From sequence record PZ151149.1: DNA of 64,000 nt; one strand, 5' to 3'. Origin of the DNA: a phage. Position numbers and translations under genes: made by a program. Under the pieces are notes generated by a model. The model did not search any database. It had not been told where the DNA came from and saw nothing but the letters and a program-made list of their open reading frames with translations. Shown here piece by piece: positions 34,276 to 38,957 of this stretch (position 1 is its first letter; each line of letters starts with the position of its first letter).

Positions 34276-34466
34276 AGATGACTCCAATATAATCGACATT
34301 TACATTTAGGGCAATGCGGTTCTTTAATATAATACCCGTCTGTCTTTGGAACACTAACAGGAGCGGTTTTTATATTGTATTCAGTGAAACAACGAAAACA
34401 AGTTACGTTTTCTACAGACTGACGTTTCACCCAATCACCGGAATATAGATCATTTTTATTTGTCAT
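34272..34466 (-). CDS. hypothetical zinc-ribbon-like protein
   Basis: CFRC ... CPKCKC pairs; ATG at 34466. Confidence 0.4.
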   Translation of the reverse strand: MTNKNDLYSGDWVKRQSVENVTCFRCFTEYNIKTAPVSVPKTDGYYIKEPHCPKCKCRLYWSHL

Positions 34467-34911
34467 ATTCAACCACCACAATATTGATATCTGGAGTAGC
34501 AATATTAATGATCTCTTCTACACATTCCCACTCAAGGCCACCGATACCGCAACCGATTTTAGGAATATAGAAAGGCTGTATAGCACCTTCAAAAACATCA
34601 TTGATAGTCTCAAATCCTTTCAGGATAGCACCATATTCAGCATTTGGACCCGGTCGGAATTGGGTATAGAGATTAACCCCGCACCAGTTATAACCATTAA
34701 CTTGATGCGTCCAGACACTAAACCCACCCAGCTTTTCTACCTTACCGCGAGAAGTTTGCTTGTCAATCTCTAACGCTTGTGGGAACTCTTTCGCGATCTT
34801 CGCAGCAATACCAGCGCCCATAGTATGAAAACAATTACAACCATGAATTAAATGACCGTTTCCTTGTTTAAACAGGGCGATGAGATCGCCCTTTACAGTA
34901 TCAATAATCAT
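34456..34911 (-). CDS. Macro-domain protein (ADP-ribose binding/processing)
   Basis: HGCNC, MGAGIAAKIA, GCGIGGL motifs characteristic of macro domains; ATG at 34911 with GGAGG SD. Confidence 0.6.
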   Translation of the reverse strand: MIIDTVKGDLIALFKQGNGHLIHGCNCFHTMGAGIAAKIAKEFPQALEIDKQTSRGKVEKLGGFSVWTHQVNGYNWCGVNLYTQFRPGPNAEYGAILKGFETINDVFEGAIQPFYIPKIGCGIGGLEWECVEEIINIATPDINIVVVEYDK

Positions 34912-34926
34912 AATATAAACCTCCAA

Positions 34927-35293: not shown

Positions 35294-35884
35294 TCAATAG
35301 CGTTTAGTTTTAAGAATGCCTTTACTCTTTAGATGGTTAGCTTTTTTTAGTACGTCATCAGCATAACCTAAACCGGCTTTATAGTTCCACCCTGCATTGT
35401 AAGAAGCTAGCGCGAGTCGGATATTACCGTTTCGAACATCCAGCCAGTATGCTAACTCATCCATCGCGTAGAATGCAGAAACCTCGCGATTCATGATAAA
35501 GTTGATAGTCTGGCGATCACTCATTTTAACACCGCGCTTTGCATTTTTCGCTTTCACCGTTTTAAGGTAATTTTGAAATAATCCATAAGCATGATGATTT
35601 TTCTTTGGTGATAAGTTTGCACCCGCGCTTGATTCTTGCCATGCGATACCCGCCAAGATGTGACCTAAACCCTTTCCGTTATAGCGAATATTCGGATGGT
35701 CCTTTTTCAACTTACCGCTTTTCTCGAATTGCTCGCCGTATTGATAGGCGAAATGTAAATTATCTAGTTGGTGTGCTGTAAAGTTGTCTATCGGCGCTTT
35801 TTTGATCGGTGCGCTAGTCGATGCGTGTGTAGCACCAACGGCTAGTGACAGACTCAATACTATCGCTTTTAGAACTTTTAACAT
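35294..35884 (-). CDS. Secreted lytic transglycosylase (SLT-domain) protein
   Basis: Signal peptide then GIAWQESS ... YGLFQ ... SYNAG motifs of family-1 lytic transglycosylases. Confidence 0.6.
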   Translation of the reverse strand: MLKVLKAIVLSLSLAVGATHASTSAPIKKAPIDNFTAHQLDNLHFAYQYGEQFEKSGKLKKDHPNIRYNGKGLGHILAGIAWQESSAGANLSPKKNHHAYGLFQNYLKTVKAKNAKRGVKMSDRQTINFIMNREVSAFYAMDELAYWLDVRNGNIRLALASYNAGWNYKAGLGYADDVLKKANHLKSKGILKTKRY

Positions 35885-35969: not shown

Positions 35970-36392
35970 TTATTGGTCTACCCTCAAAACAACAGCCGAC
36001 ATTTTACCCGCAAGTCGTTTTGGATTCTCTATAATCATTCGGCAGCATAGACCGTGATACGGTTTACCCTCTTCGATTAGATCTACTGTCATTCCGATCC
36101 ACATGTTACCGTCAGTAATTTCTAATCGATTAGGTCGGTCTTCCATTTTCAGGAAGTCGAAGATCTCCGGCAAACGAGTTTCTACCTTATTGAATAGTTC
36201 CATTGTCTTATGTTCATCGATATGACGATCGGTTAATCTGTCGATCATATGTGGACTAAAGCGAATGAAAATATACTCGCCGTAACCATCATTCAAGCAC
36301 TTTTCTTTGATCTGCGCATTGGTTTTGCGCATTTCGGTTTCGAAGAATCTGCGCAGCTTACTACGGCGAACATGTACGTTAATTGTTTCCAT
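35970..36392 (-). CDS. hypothetical protein
   Basis: ATG at 36392 with AAGGAG SD. Confidence 0.45.
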   Translation of the reverse strand: METINVHVRRSKLRRFFETEMRKTNAQIKEKCLNDGYGEYIFIRFSPHMIDRLTDRHIDEHKTMELFNKVETRLPEIFDFLKMEDRPNRLEITDGNMWIGMTVDLIEEGKPYHGLCCRMIIENPKRLAGKMSAVVLRVDQ

Positions 36393-36393
36393 T

Positions 36394-36732
36394 TTATTCT
36401 CCTTTCTTGAACAAATTGCGAAGCCAGTATACAAACGGGATTTCTTTAAACTTGAATTTCTCTATAGTTAATTCTTTAGTAGCAAGATGAATACCATAAG
36501 AATCATGTGTCACGATATGCCATTTTCTATAGTCCAAATGTGAACAACCATTTGAATCTAGGTTAATAATAGTTTCTCGCTCACTAGGATTGTTTTTCCA
36601 CGATTTTGTAATCGGATCGCACATAATTCGACCTAGCGTACCATGAATAATCTCGCATTTGTAAACCTTTCCGGCAGTGATATAAGCGCAACCGTCATAG
36701 TCGGTATAAACAAACACTTCTTTAACACTCAT
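36394..36732 (-). CDS. hypothetical protein, tandem paralog 1 of 3
   Basis: GCSHLDYRKWHIV motif shared with next two ORFs; ATG at 36732. Confidence 0.45.
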   Translation of the reverse strand: MSVKEVFVYTDYDGCAYITAGKVYKCEIIHGTLGRIMCDPITKSWKNNPSERETIINLDSNGCSHLDYRKWHIVTHDSYGIHLATKELTIEKFKFKEIPFVYWLRNLFKKGE

Positions 36733-36763
36733 TTTAATACTCCTTTGTAGTTTCGATGGGGGT

Positions 36764-36792
36764 ATATTACTACCCCCGTTTTGACGTGTCAA
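36764..36792 (-). promoter_or_regulatory. Early promoter with stem-loop (TTGACA-17-TAATAT)
   Basis: GGGGGUAGUAAUAUACCCCC hairpin spans -10. Confidence 0.45.
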
Positions 36793-37038
36793 CTACTTTT
36801 TCAAGAATTTTTTGAGTACATTCCAAAGACCTTTATTCTCGGCTTGTTTTGGTTCTTCGATCAGTGTCCATGTTCGACCGTCTAAGTGTGCACAATTTTT
36901 AAGGCAAATAAAAATCTGGTGTCCCTTATCATCACGGATATAACCACTATTCGCAAATCTTTCATGTGGTGTATATTCATACAGTGTATTCGGTGTAATA
37001 TACTTGCGGTTACTATAAGGTGTCGTTACATATTTCAT
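36793..37038 (-). CDS. hypothetical protein, tandem paralog 2 of 3
   Basis: YEYTPHERF..GYIRDDKGHQIFICL..CAHLDGRTWTL. Confidence 0.45.
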   Translation of the reverse strand: MKYVTTPYSNRKYITPNTLYEYTPHERFANSGYIRDDKGHQIFICLKNCAHLDGRTWTLIEEPKQAENKGLWNVLKKFLKK

Positions 37039-37229
37039 GGTACTAACTCCCAACGATCACCGCGAAGATGAGAACATCCACCATCAAGAAGGATCGTAAT
37101 ACGAAACCCCGCATCATCTTCAATATACCCGATAGTCGGTGGATGTTCGTCGTCTCGTGTCGGGGTAAAATCATACATCTTTCCCGGTGTGATATCATTG
37201 CCTTTATTGCTATTGGTATAAACTTGCAT
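37035..37229 (-). CDS. hypothetical protein, tandem paralog 3 of 3
   Basis: YDFTPTRDD..GYIEDDAGFRITILL..CSHLRGDRWEL. Confidence 0.45.
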   Translation of the reverse strand: MQVYTNSNKGNDITPGKMYDFTPTRDDEHPPTIGYIEDDAGFRITILLDGGCSHLRGDRWELVP

Positions 37230-37250: not shown

Positions 37251-37949
37251 CTAACCACGGGTATAGTGTTCCAGAACAACGGTCAGATGAATATATTCTA
37301 ATAAATCTTTCCAAAAGTCAACATCTGGTTCTTCCGGCATACCGTTTTTCTTTGCCTCTTCACGCGCGAGTTTAACACGCTCGTAGAGATCTTTCAATTC
37401 TTCCCGCACATTATCAAAGGTTCTTTCTCCTAACTTACACGCTAAAATAGAAGAACGTCGCGCGAGAGGGAATTGTAGATCACCAGTCTGATAGATTTCA
37501 AGTAGCTGATAACCAACACGCAGAGCATGAGAAAGGTCTTTCCAGTTACTGAAATACTTTTCAGATTTGGCTACCTGCTTTTTGAGATAACCGGAGCACC
37601 CCCACATACCAACATGATAGAATTTATCGCGATGTGTTCGGATGTATTCCCATTCTCTGGAGGATTCAATCAACATGTTACTAGGCGCGTGCACCATGTC
37701 AATAGCGCCGATATCACCTTTACATGCCAGATTGATAAACCGTTTTAGACTGAACATATTAACGTCAATATCGTCTTTGGTGTTCTTGATACCTTGACCG
37801 CTAGTGCTTTGGTCATAGTGTTCTTTCATCGATCCTAAGATAATTTCTTTCGCAGTCGGAACAAAGATACCACGATAATCTTTATCGGAATTTTCAGTAT
37901 CAAGGCCGTATAAGTGAGATCCGAAGACCATTTTAACCATTGTATGCAT
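37251..37949 (-). CDS. Predicted nucleotidyltransferase (pol-beta superfamily)
   Basis: N-terminal FGSHLYGLDTENSDKDYRGIF matches the GS-x9-13-D-x-D nucleotidyltransferase signature. Confidence 0.55.
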   Translation of the reverse strand: MHTMVKMVFGSHLYGLDTENSDKDYRGIFVPTAKEIILGSMKEHYDQSTSGQGIKNTKDDIDVNMFSLKRFINLACKGDIGAIDMVHAPSNMLIESSREWEYIRTHRDKFYHVGMWGCSGYLKKQVAKSEKYFSNWKDLSHALRVGYQLLEIYQTGDLQFPLARRSSILACKLGERTFDNVREELKDLYERVKLAREEAKKNGMPEEPDVDFWKDLLEYIHLTVVLEHYTRG

Positions 37950-37962
37950 AATTAAACCCTCA

Positions 37963-38493
37963 TTAGTATTTTACGTTACGTCGAACGCCTTTTCGAATCT
38001 GACAAATAGCAGACGGTGAAACATTATATTTTCTTGCAAGTTCTACACCCTTCATATGGGGAGAAGATAAAATCTCTTCCACTTGGTCGTCGGTAAGTTT
38101 TGCGTTTCCGTGGTTCTCTCCCCAATTGTTGTTTAATCCTTCTTCCTTCGCATGAACAAGATTTCGGGTATCTGTCGTCCATTCAAGATTATAAAGGTCA
38201 TAGTTTTGTTTGTTTCCATCCTTATGATTAACTACACGGTAGTTATTTGGATTCGGAATAAACGCAACCGCCATAGCTTTATGCATGTTCACGGTTTTTC
38301 TAAATCCATCCGGCTTATAACATACTGTAAATTTAGAATAACCAGTTTTACCATAAACACTAATATAATTTCCGGTCTCTGTATTTCTAACCCTACCATG
38401 AGAGCTAATCTCAAATTGAGTGTAGGGCAACAGCGCATCAATCACTTTCCATTCTTCGACAGGATGGTCATCACAATATCTTTTAATCATCAT
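37963..38493 (-). CDS. Free-standing HNH homing endonuclease
   Basis: EISSHGRVRN (NUMOD4-like) and NHKDGNKQNYDLYNLEW (HNH) motifs. Confidence 0.7.
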   Translation of the reverse strand: MMIKRYCDDHPVEEWKVIDALLPYTQFEISSHGRVRNTETGNYISVYGKTGYSKFTVCYKPDGFRKTVNMHKAMAVAFIPNPNNYRVVNHKDGNKQNYDLYNLEWTTDTRNLVHAKEEGLNNNWGENHGNAKLTDDQVEEILSSPHMKGVELARKYNVSPSAICQIRKGVRRNVKY

Positions 38494-38502
38494 ATCACCT
38501 CA

Positions 38503-38534
38503 TAAAAATAAAGCCAACCCTTTCGGATTGGCTT
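38503..38534 (-). terminator. Rho-independent terminator
   Basis: Minus-strand hairpin AAGCCAAUCC-GAAA-GGGUUGGCUU + UUAUUUUUAU. Confidence 0.55.
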
Positions 38535-38540
38535 AAAAAA

Positions 38541-38957
38541 TTACATTGCTTCCGTAAAGGTGCGCGAAATAACGTCACGTTGTTGGTCTGGAGTCAGACT
38601 ATTGAATCTTACGGCATATCCGCTAACGCGAATGGTTAGTTGCGGATACTTATCAGGATTAGCAACCGCATCAAGAAGAAGATCGCGACTCATCACATTG
38701 ATATTCGCGTGCTGACCACCTTCGACAACCGGAGCGCCATTATCTACAACAACCGGACGGAAGCTAGTTGTGTGCAGTGCCAGCGAATCGACGTCTTCGG
38801 CGGTGATCACATGTTCTTCTGCGAAAGTTTTACTAACAATTACTTTAGCGCCGATCAGTGCTTTCGGTTCGGATACCAGAATCATAGGCGCGAAGTGTCC
38901 ACCGATAATAGTACCTTTATGCTCACCTTTCATGATTTGAATTGCTTTAAATTCCAT
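38541..38957 (-). CDS. Autonomous glycyl-radical cofactor (GrcA/YfiD-like)
   Basis: C-terminal [29 protein letters not shown] is the glycyl-radical signature. Confidence 0.75.

What the first reader, a model, noticed from the sequence alone, without database searches (positions are those of the whole stretch)
37251..37949. Predicted pol-beta-type nucleotidyltransferase of unknown substrate
FGSHLYGLDTENSDKDYRGIF is a clean GS...SD.D nucleotidyltransferase motif followed by a ~150-aa helical domain. Enzymes of this superfamily include nucleotide-signal synthases and modifiers of proteins or nucleic acids. In a phage accessory region it is a candidate for host takeover or immune interference.
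Basis: partly seen in the sequence, partly recalled or inferred. Interest (0 to 1): 0.5.

Follow-up and report, generated by a model that had tools for sequence, protein, structure and literature searches.

The report
Phage RlaP-type RNA-end nucleotidyltransferase (NrdC.11)

The parts
37251..37949 (-). nrdC.11 / RlaP-family nucleotidyltransferase ORF, 232 aa, 27.0 kDa
   Evidence: ORF list. Pfam PF10127 at 53 bits. PHROG 388. The same 699-nt ORF is annotated nrdC.11 'nucleotidyltransferase' in JSE, which is 96% identical over the 4-kb region searched. dN/dS is 0.02-0.06 against JSE, GEC-3S and phiS.
37957..37961 (-). Shine-Dalgarno GAGGG, 7 nt upstream of the ATG
   Evidence: Read directly from the sequence.
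37878..37922 (-). Pol-beta motif G10-S11 ... D22-x-D24 (GSHLYGLDTENSDKD): nucleotide-binding turn plus the first two metal-binding carboxylates
   Evidence: Translation. Invariant in alignments A1 and A2. 99-100% conserved in the 101-sequence family alignment.
37764..37784 (-). N56-T-K-D-D60-I-D62 motif leading into strand 62-67. It supplies the third catalytic carboxylate, either D60 or D62; which one is not resolved.
   Evidence: Translation. N56, D60 and D62 are invariant in A2 and 95-99% conserved family-wide. Strand E62-67 is seen in the model.
37605..37949 (-). N-terminal NTase domain plus connecting helices (residues 1-115)
   Evidence: AF2 secondary structure: E2-9, E24-30, E44-48, E62-67, E93-96 with interleaved helices.
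37260..37604 (-). C-terminal helical bundle (residues 116-230: helices 116-131, 136-155, 165-172, 178-201, 210-230), HEPN-like / KNTase-C-like
37518..37541 (-). K137-x3-H141-x2-R144 (KDLSHALR), family-wide conserved basic cluster on helix 136-155. Inferred to be the NTP-triphosphate or RNA-binding site.
   Evidence: K137 is conserved in 100%, H141 in 100% and R144 in 99% of 101 sequences. Y121 (99%) and Q125 (97%) lie on the preceding helix. The function of these residues is inferred, not tested.
37542..37568 (-). Deletion scar (K128-SEKYFSN-W136). About 100 residues present in other NrdC.11-type proteins are missing here. The missing segment is flanked in the long forms by conserved YGxKGS and YGERARxAExN motifs.
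   Evidence: Alignments A1 and A2. The Pfam profile aligns contiguously to the short form but only to the N-terminal part of the long form. In the long-form AF2 model the missing segment is an alpha/beta subdomain, about residues 131-240.
38489..38534 (-). Upstream signals: a terminator-like hairpin after vs.6 (38534..38511), overlapped by a promoter-like TTGGCT-17-TATGAT element (38517..38489). In relatives lacking the homing endonuclease this element sits directly in front of the NTase gene.
   Evidence: Consensus scans only. Comparison with GEC-3S shows the homing-endonuclease gene as a clean insertion of about 520 bp between this element and the NTase ribosome-binding site. GEC-3S annotates a terminator here.

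Best explanation
The ORF encodes an active RlaP-family (PF10127) Pol-beta-type nucleotidyltransferase, the Krischvirus orthologue of T4 NrdC.11. Proposed mechanism: the N-terminal minimal NTase domain (G10-S11, D22, D24, D60/D62) binds two divalent metals, probably Mn2+. The HEPN-like helical bundle contributes Y121, Q125, K137, H141 and R144 to hold the NTP and the RNA end in the inter-domain cleft. The enzyme then transfers one or two (d)NMPs, without a template, to an RNA 3'-OH. In the infected cell this would patch tRNA halves that have lost nucleotides, for example after attack by RloC-type anticodon nucleases that excise the wobble base. Patching would follow 3'-end healing by phage Pnk and precede resealing by phage Rnl1. 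What is shown here: family membership, conservation of the active site, purifying selection, and Pnk and Rnl1 genes in the close relative JSE, with equal counts of near-identical matches for all three proteins among phage records. What is shown elsewhere, for bacterial RlaPs only: addition of 1-2 nt to RNA 3'-OH. What is inferred: that the phage clade has the same substrate, and the tRNA-repair role in vivo. The Krischvirus enzyme is a derived, insert-less version of the T4-type protein and shares the compact domain layout of canonical bacterial RlaPs.
For: Pfam RlaP at 53 bits against a cutoff of 23, aligned contiguously over residues 7-191. PHROG 388 at E 5e-80. Annotated nrdC.11 'nucleotidyltransferase' in JSE and GEC-3S RefSeq records. 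All 17 family-wide conserved residues are present in the window protein, including the four Asp and the K/H/R cluster. dN/dS is 0.02-0.06. The AF2 model is confident (pLDDT 92) and shows an NTase domain plus a helical bundle, matching the two-domain description of the PfRlaP crystal structure. Preprint 10.64898/2025.12.29.696909 reports that PfRlaP and PaRlaP label RNA only, not DNA or protein. They need a 3'-OH, add 1-2 NMP or dNMP, prefer Mn2+ and prefer the 5' half of a cleaved-tRNA mimic. Pre-treatment raises aminoacylation of a repaired tRNA lacking one anticodon-loop nucleotide. The preprint places T4 NrdC.11 in the same Pfam family, SSN cluster 5. Iyer et al. 2021 (PMC7824862) report that RlaP distribution in jumbo phages mirrors RNA ligases, and predict that it restores nucleotides lost to RloC-type nucleases before ligation. 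JSE encodes pseT (Pnk) and rnlA (Rnl1). For each of the three proteins, tblastn finds 59 phage records at >=95% identity, matching the 59 records found by the regional DNA search. Genus-level counts for RlaP and Rnl1 are nearly identical (Escherichia 607/637, Klebsiella 285/287, Shigella 83/83, Acinetobacter 69/69). The T4-type ligase needs 3'-OH and 5'-P ends, which is chemically compatible with an RlaP product. Compatibility is problematic for RtcB operons, as the preprint itself notes.
Against: No phage RlaP/NrdC.11 has been assayed, and the preprint labels the T4 protein 'unknown function'. The window protein is only 23-30% identical to the bacterial short RlaPs sampled here. The characterised Pseudomonas enzymes lie in a different SSN cluster and were not compared directly. 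The gene is not adjacent to an RNA ligase: its neighbours are a homing endonuclease, vs.6 and small ORFs, and Pnk and Rnl1 lie outside the window. No Pnk or Rnl1 homologue lies within 6 kb of any of 80 bacterial or MAG homologues. Sampled neighbourhoods, including two other phages, showed no ligases. Co-occurrence with Rnl1 may simply reflect both genes being common in T4-like phages. T4 nrdC.11 is dispensable in the laboratory (PMC9825161). That fits an accessory counter-defence role but does not prove one. The short form lacks a conserved module, so its specificity may differ from T4 NrdC.11.
Confidence: 0.55

Rival explanations
1. General RNA 3'-end tailing for phage-directed RNA metabolism rather than repair. 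Short untemplated tails would be added to host or early phage mRNA fragments to give 3'-exonucleases a toehold. Candidate substrates are fragments made by RegB, whose gene lies four ORFs downstream, after 3'-dephosphorylation by Pnk.
For: Bacterial RlaP labels many RNA species in total E. coli RNA, including rRNA-sized and full-length tRNA bands, with little NTP specificity. In Krischvirus the gene sits in a cluster with regB, at 35970..36434. There is no ligase adjacency.
Against: Only 1-2 nt are added by the characterised enzymes, and they prefer a cleaved-tRNA mimic. Proximity to regB is specific to Krischvirus; T4 nrdC.11 sits in the nrdC-mobD region. No experimental link is known.
Confidence: 0.15
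2. Repair of tRNA 3' acceptor ends, acting as a CCA-like patch after damage by host nucleases, rather than repair of anticodon-loop breaks.
For: Full-length tRNA-sized species are labelled by bacterial RlaP. The reaction is template-independent 3' addition. Phages are known to carry CCA-adding enzymes for this purpose (PMC7824862).
Against: No Pfam match to CCA-adding/poly(A) polymerase families at E<=1. The characterised RlaPs show little NTP specificity, so faithful CCA restoration is unlikely. In the annealed tRNA mimic the acceptor-side 3' end was the disfavoured substrate.
Confidence: 0.1
3. Nucleotidylation of a protein or small molecule, as in ANT/LinB antibiotic NTases, MNT antitoxins that AMPylate HEPN toxins, or DrrA-type AMPylators. 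The target might be a host defence protein, which would be inactivated.
Against: These are fold-level matches only: 7-13% identity, TM-scores 0.3-0.45, and no sequence-level hit in the PDB even with family profiles. Bacterial RlaPs did not label E. coli proteins. Sequence membership is in RlaP, not NTP_transf_2 or KNTase_C.
Confidence: 0.07
4. HalB-like template-independent oligo(deoxy)nucleotide synthase. The phage would make a nucleic-acid signal or decoy, for example oligo-dA that keeps a Hailong HalA channel closed while phage exonucleases are active.
Against: Identity is only 13-14%, with no sequence-level relationship detectable. The characterised RlaPs stop after 1-2 nt and do not act on DNA. 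There are no PADLOC hits. Nothing links T4-like phages to Hailong in the sources read.
Confidence: 0.05
5. CD-NTase/cGAS-like or other cyclic-nucleotide signal synthase, or a sponge or mimic of one.
Against: No Pfam, NCBIfam or PADLOC match to such families. None appears among the top 50-60 fold matches.
Confidence: 0.02

Closest known systems
T4 NrdC.11 and its orthologues in T4-like phages (Straboviridae); PHROG 388
   Same: Orthologous gene, annotated nrdC.11 in JSE and Phi1. Identity is 41-49% over the shared N- and C-terminal parts, and all conserved motifs are shared. In NJ trees the window protein nests inside the long-form T4-type clade. A free-standing HNH homing endonuclease sits next to the gene here, as mobD does in T4.
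   Different: 232 aa against about 305-345 aa. It lacks the ~100-residue alpha/beta insert and its conserved flanks YGxKGS and YGERARxAExN. Of the 150 best cluster representatives, only the one representing this short lineage (P0002) is short apart from two truncated entries. The genome position also differs: between vs.6 and regB here, but in the nrdC-mobD region in T4.
Bacterial RlaP (PF10127), characterised for Pseudomonas fluorescens and P. aeruginosa (preprint 10.64898/2025.12.29.696909)
   Same: Same Pfam family, above the gathering threshold. Same two-domain plan of an N-terminal NTase, a C-terminal helical domain and three conserved Asp. The compact insert-less layout matches the Pfam profile and the Bacillaceae and Zavarzinella RlaPs, with the same boundaries.
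   Different: Identity to the bacterial short forms sampled is only 23-30%. T4-type proteins fall in a different SSN cluster, 5 rather than 1a. The gene is not in an rtcB/rtcA or other RNA-ligase operon. Activity is untested. The PfRlaP coordinates were not in the PDB copy searched, so no direct superposition was possible.
Hailong HalB (PDB 9dbh, 9dbi, 9dbj)
   Different: 13-14% identity and no detectable sequence homology. HalB is a host defence component that makes long tyrosine-primed poly-dA and works with the HalA channel. No such partner is evident here.
Kanamycin nucleotidyltransferase ANT(4') and related ANT/LinB enzymes (MNT + HEPN-like fusion)
   Same: Domain architecture of a minimal NTase plus a four/five-helix HEPN-like substrate-binding domain. 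These are the top Foldseek hits (E 4e-5).
   Different: TM-scores 0.37-0.42 and 11-12% identity. They have small-molecule acceptors. There is no sequence-family match.

Membership tests
[quoted passage not shown] | Match to the Pfam PF10127 profile above its gathering score | tested here: met
   53.1 bits against a cutoff of 23, E 4.7e-14, residues 7-191 on profile positions 24-198 of 249. The closest short relative P0002 covers profile positions 23-229.
[quoted passage not shown] | Pol-beta catalytic signature: hG[GS] turn, DxD pair and a third carboxylate, all conserved | tested here: met
   G10-S11, D22, D24 and D60/D62 are present and 95-100% conserved in 101 phage and bacterial family members.
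[quoted passage not shown] | Two-domain fold: N-terminal NTase plus C-terminal helical domain forming a cleft lined by the most conserved residues | tested here: inconclusive
   The AF2 model (pLDDT 92.4) shows the two domains. The conserved Y121, Q125, K137, H141 and R144 lie on the first two helices of the bundle. This agrees with the text description of PfRlaP.
[quoted passage not shown] | Gene neighbourhood with an RNA ligase (RtcB or a 5'-P ligase), the origin of the family name | tested here: not met
   The neighbours are an HNH homing endonuclease, vs.6 (Gly_radical) and small ORFs. Pnk and Rnl1 are absent from the 64-kb window. At genome level the close relative JSE does encode both, and each of the three proteins has 59 near-identical phage-record matches. 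This feature names the family but does not define the Pfam model; many members lack it.
[quoted passage not shown] | Adds 1-2 (d)NMP to the 3'-OH of RNA, Mn2+-stimulated | not testable with these tools
   Shown only for PfRlaP and PaRlaP. Needs biochemistry on this protein.
T4 NrdC.11 orthologous group (PHROG 388) | Strong profile match and nesting within T4-like phage sequences | tested here: met
   PHROG 388 at E 4.9e-80. MRCA(window, T4-type P0036) excludes all bacterial short forms in 90 of 100 NJ bootstraps.
T4 NrdC.11 orthologous group (PHROG 388) | Full-length architecture of about 310-345 aa with the central alpha/beta insert (conserved YGxKGS ... YGERARxAExN) | tested here: not met
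   The insert is absent: the PHROG match is split into two stretches, and alignment gaps span about 100 columns. This is a truncated-architecture variant of the group.
Hailong HalB-type NTase | Detectable sequence homology to HalB | tested here: not met
Hailong HalB-type NTase | Operon partner HalA (transmembrane DNA-gated channel) | not tested
   The adjacent ORFs are an HNH endonuclease and small ORFs of 64-132 aa with no Pfam match. No explicit HalA comparison or transmembrane prediction was run.
CD-NTase / cGAS-like signalling synthases | Sequence or fold match to CD-NTase families | tested here: not met
   No Pfam hit at E<=1 other than RlaP and a sub-threshold DUF1266 match. No meaningful PADLOC hit. 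Absent from the top fold matches.
CCA-adding enzyme / poly(A) polymerase (PF01743) | Pfam PolyA_pol head-domain match | tested here: not met
   Not reported at E<=1.

The most novel reading that the evidence does not exclude
The Krischvirus NrdC.11 is a naturally minimised enzyme. It lost a ~100-residue alpha/beta module that is otherwise near-universal in the NrdC.11 clade, where it carries its own near-invariant motifs, yet the short gene remains under strong purifying selection. If that module is the substrate-specificity element, the short form may act on a different acceptor than T4 NrdC.11. In the most novel reading, it behaves like its closest solved fold, Hailong HalB, making untemplated oligo(deoxy)nucleotides that serve as a decoy or replacement signal against a host defence, rather than patching tRNA.
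Probability: 0.06. Interest if true: 0.7.

Novelty: already known. Interest (0 to 1): 0.27.

Why it matters
RlaP-type enzymes are proposed as the answer to "smart" anticodon nucleases such as RloC. These nucleases excise a nucleotide so that the classic T4 Pnk/Rnl1 repair reseals a defective tRNA. T4-like phages are the setting where that arms race was discovered, and their ligase chemistry (3'-OH plus 5'-P) fits an RlaP product directly. A phage orthologue is therefore a good place to test the idea. The gene itself is catalogued, and the hypothesis is already in print (PMC7824862; preprint 10.64898/2025.12.29.696909). This window adds only two things. It confirms that the gene is intact, conserved and selected. 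It also shows that the RB49/JSE lineage carries a compact, insert-less version, which could serve as a natural minimal construct for biochemistry and for asking what the T4-type insert does.

Tried and rejected
- NCBIfam scan: no family.
- PADLOC scan: only noise (E 0.028 and 0.0045 on short stretches).
- Sequence searches of the PDB with the protein and with three family profiles (A1 long+short, A4 short forms): only spurious hits at E>=0.085. No RlaP structure, and no HalB or KNTase, is reachable by sequence.
- Foldseek against afdb50: library unavailable. The Hailong primary paper (PMC12360457) is not held, so HalB details come from a review and from PDB entry titles.
- RNA-ligase linkage: phmmer with JSE Pnk, Rnl1 and a second Pnk-like protein against six-frame ORFs of 80 bacterial/MAG loci found nothing. 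Pfam scans of neighbours at six loci found a prophage-like ProQ_C/NadR-NUDIX/C5-methylase context, an abutting HD_4 gene, SNF2 helicase, an AbiEii-like ATPase, and nucleoside hydrolase/DegV, but no ligases. Bacillus phage 0524phi7-1 and mycobacteriophage Wildcat likewise have no adjacent ligase.
- Late-promoter motif TATAAATA: not enriched, and none lies near the gene.
- tRNA genes in the window: none.
- Scripts: the first tree script timed out. The first monophyly criterion was badly posed and gave 0/60. It was replaced by an MRCA-exclusion test.
- Model coordinates are not exposed to scripts, so active-site geometry and electrostatics were not examined.

Full report
**1. The observation**

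- Window 37251..37949 holds an ATG-initiated ORF of 232 codons on the minus strand.
- A GAGGG Shine-Dalgarno sequence lies 7 nt upstream.
G10-S11 and D22-x-D24 form the canonical Pol-beta signature.
- A second acidic motif, N56-T-K-D-D60-I-D62, leads into a beta-strand and supplies the third carboxylate.
- An AlphaFold2 model built on 44 homologues is confident (pLDDT 92.4, pTM 0.88). It shows an N-terminal alpha/beta domain followed by a bundle of helices at 116-131, 136-155, 165-172, 178-201 and 210-230.
Two corrections apply: the gene is on the minus strand, and the helical part is about 115-130 residues rather than about 150.

**2. What the window is**

- The surrounding 4 kb is 95-96% identical to Krischvirus phages (JSE, Whisky, 011D4, GEC-3S, Phi1), the RB49-like branch of the T4-like Straboviridae.
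- The window corresponds to roughly JSE positions 16-80 kb.
- In JSE and Phi1 the same 699-nt ORF is named nrdC.11, and RefSeq calls it "nucleotidyltransferase".
- The neighbours, all on the minus strand, are:
  - upstream: vs.6 (glycyl-radical cofactor) and a free-standing HNH_3/NUMOD4 homing endonuclease;
  - downstream: three small ORFs, then regB, vs.1 (SLT), vs and tk.4 (Macro domain).

**3. Family assignment**

- The protein matches Pfam PF10127, "RlaP, RNA repair pathway DNA polymerase beta family", at 53 bits against a cutoff of 23. It matches PHROG 388 at E 5e-80. NCBIfam and PADLOC give nothing.
- Homologues are abundant: 287 in the indexed search, almost all NrdC.11 proteins of T4-like phages; 1584 phage records by tblastn; and 6968 50%-identity cluster representatives at E<=1e-3, of which 1577 are at E<=1e-30.
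- I aligned 101 sequences spanning phage long forms, bacterial long forms and bacterial short forms. The residues conserved in at least 90% are G10, S11, G15, S21, D22, D24, P31, N56, D60, D62, G78, Y121, Q125, K137, H141, R144 and G174. All are present in the window protein.
- Pairwise dN/dS among four Krischvirus orthologues is 0.02-0.06. The gene is functional and constrained.

**4. What the family does**

- NrdC.11 was recognised as a COG3541 nucleotidyltransferase in 2006 (PMC1524935).
- In T4 the gene lies on a fragment that can be deleted without loss of viability (PMC9825161).
- Comparative work on jumbo phages reports that RlaP distribution mirrors RNA ligases. It predicts that RlaP restores nucleotides removed by nucleases such as RloC before ligation (PMC7824862).
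- A December 2025 preprint (10.64898/2025.12.29.696909) characterised two Pseudomonas RlaPs:
  - they label RNA, but not DNA or protein;
  - they require a 3'-OH and add one or two NMPs or dNMPs, with little base specificity;
  - they prefer Mn2+ and favour the 5' half of a cleaved-tRNA mimic;
  - pre-treatment raises aminoacylation of a re-ligated tRNA that lacked one anticodon-loop nucleotide;
  - the 2.1 A structure is an N-terminal NTase domain plus a C-terminal helical domain with a conserved, partly basic cleft.
- The preprint places T4 NrdC.11 in a different sequence-similarity cluster and labels its function unknown.

**5. Fit to this phage**

- The end chemistry suits T4-type repair. 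Pnk converts 2',3'-cyclic or 3'-phosphate ends to 3'-OH and phosphorylates 5'-OH ends. An RlaP can then extend the 3'-OH, and Rnl1 joins 3'-OH to 5'-P.
- JSE encodes pseT and rnlA about 75 kb from nrdC.11. They are not in the window.
- For each of NrdC.11, Rnl1 and Pnk, tblastn finds 59 phage records at >=95% identity, the same number as the records matched by the regional DNA search. Per-record overlap was not checked.
- Genus-level counts for RlaP and Rnl1 are almost identical across the phage collection. This is co-occurrence, not linkage, and both genes are simply common in T4-like phages.
- I found no RNA-ligase adjacency for this gene. The same holds for 80 bacterial or MAG homologues, for six sampled neighbourhoods, and for a Bacillus phage and a mycobacteriophage.
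- The tRNA-patching role is therefore the best-supported inference, but it remains an inference.

**6. What is particular here**

- Nearly all NrdC.11-type proteins are 305-345 aa. The window protein and one relative (P0002, 57% identical, 234 aa) lack about 100 central residues.
- Among the 150 best representatives, only P0002 is a full-length short form.
- The Pfam profile aligns contiguously to the short form, but only to the N-terminal part of the long form.
- Bacillaceae and Zavarzinella RlaPs are also short, with the same boundaries. The compact layout is thus the canonical RlaP plan.
- The window protein is nevertheless much closer to the phage long forms (mean 43% identity) than to the bacterial short forms (28%). 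It nests inside the long-form clade in 90 of 100 NJ bootstraps. The residual "EKYFS" aligns with the long forms' "EYGER". Loss of the insert is therefore secondary.
- P0002's 5.8-kb contig is syntenic: endolysin, vs.8, vs.6, HNH endonuclease, RlaP. The short form is thus old within this lineage.

**7. Structural neighbours**

- No solved structure is reachable by sequence. The PfRlaP coordinates are evidently not in the PDB copy.
- By fold, Foldseek ranks ANT(4') kanamycin NTase, Hailong HalB, 3c18, LinB and AadA (E 4e-5 to 1e-3, TM-scores 0.3-0.5).
- The architecture is therefore the minimal-NTase plus HEPN-like-bundle fusion seen in KNTase and HalB.
- HalB is a template-independent, tyrosine-primed poly-dA synthase of a host defence system (PMC13434031). 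The resemblance is consistent with terminal-transferase chemistry. At this level of similarity it is not evidence for a Hailong-related role, and I keep that as a low-probability rival.
- CD-NTase-like signalling, CCA-adding and antibiotic-NTase memberships all fail their tests.

**8. Verdict**

- The gene is real, intact and selected, and it is correctly recognised as a Pol-beta-type NTase. It is an already annotated member of an already named family.
- Bacterial members of that family have a demonstrated RNA 3'-end nucleotidyl-addition activity, and a phage role in RNA repair has already been proposed in print.
- The modest new point is the derived, insert-less architecture in Krischvirus.
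- Approximate confidence:
  - active RlaP-family NTase: 0.9;
  - acceptor is an RNA 3'-OH: 0.6;
  - physiological role is patching nuclease-damaged tRNA ahead of Rnl1: 0.35-0.4.

Noticed in passing
window 37963..38493 (-), with junctions near 37964 and 38488: A free-standing HNH_3/NUMOD4 homing endonuclease (176 aa) lies directly upstream of nrdC.11. It is a clean insertion of about 520 bp relative to GEC-3S, Phi1 and Makalu-type relatives, which lack it. It is present in JSE, Whisky, 011D4 and phiS, and also at the same spot in the distant relative contig L086. T4's HNH endonuclease mobD also abuts nrdC.11, although the T4 gene is elsewhere in the genome. This suggests nrdC.11 or its flank may be a recurrent homing target.
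   Followed up: partly
window 38489..38534 (-): A terminator-like hairpin after vs.6 (10-bp stem, T-run) overlaps a promoter-like TTGGCT-17-TATGAT element. In endonuclease-less relatives this element sits about 30 nt upstream of the NTase start codon. Here the endonuclease's ATG (38493) lies inside the -10 hexamer. Transcripts from this promoter would therefore lack the endonuclease start codon but still carry the NTase. These are consensus matches only.
   Followed up: partly
window 37035..37229, 36793..37053, 36394..36792 (all -): Tandem small paralogues lie immediately downstream of the NTase, with overlapping stop and start codons. The 64-aa and 86-aa ORFs share 43% identity over 51 aa (E 7e-12), with a GYIxDDxG...C[SA]HLxGxxWxL motif. 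The third ORF shares only the CSHLDxxxW motif (E 0.002). None has a Pfam match, and their function is unknown.
   Followed up: partly
window 34456..34926 (-): Tk.4 is a Macro-domain protein (Pfam E 1.5e-6), in the same early gene cluster as regB and nrdC.11. Macro domains process ADP-ribose derivatives, including by-products of RNA 2'-phosphate removal, or reverse ADP-ribosylation. A possible link to RNA repair or counter-defence was not examined.
   Followed up: no
window 38541..38957 (-) and 35294..35884 (-): vs.6 is a small glycyl-radical (GrcA/YfiD-like) protein (Gly_radical E 4.9e-15). vs.1 carries an SLT transglycosylase domain. Both agree with published T4-like annotations.
   Followed up: no
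L084 5480..6990 (Asaia siamensis) and L006 3203..8696 (Flagellimonas marina): Long-form bacterial RlaP homologues occur in contexts without a ligase. In Asaia an HD_4 (RelA/SpoT-type HD) gene ends exactly where the RlaP gene starts, suggesting a two-gene operon. In Flagellimonas the gene sits in a prophage-like block with a phage ProQ-C-like protein, a NadR-like NMNAT-NUDIX protein and a C5 DNA methylase.
   Followed up: no
L088 1..5711 (Bacillus phage 0524phi7-1): The RlaP gene of this Herelleviridae phage lies just downstream of nrdA, nrdB, flavodoxin and thioredoxin genes. This echoes the placement of T4 nrdC.11 in the nrdC (thioredoxin) region. It may explain why many databases mislabel NrdC.11 orthologues as 'thioredoxin'.
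   Followed up: no
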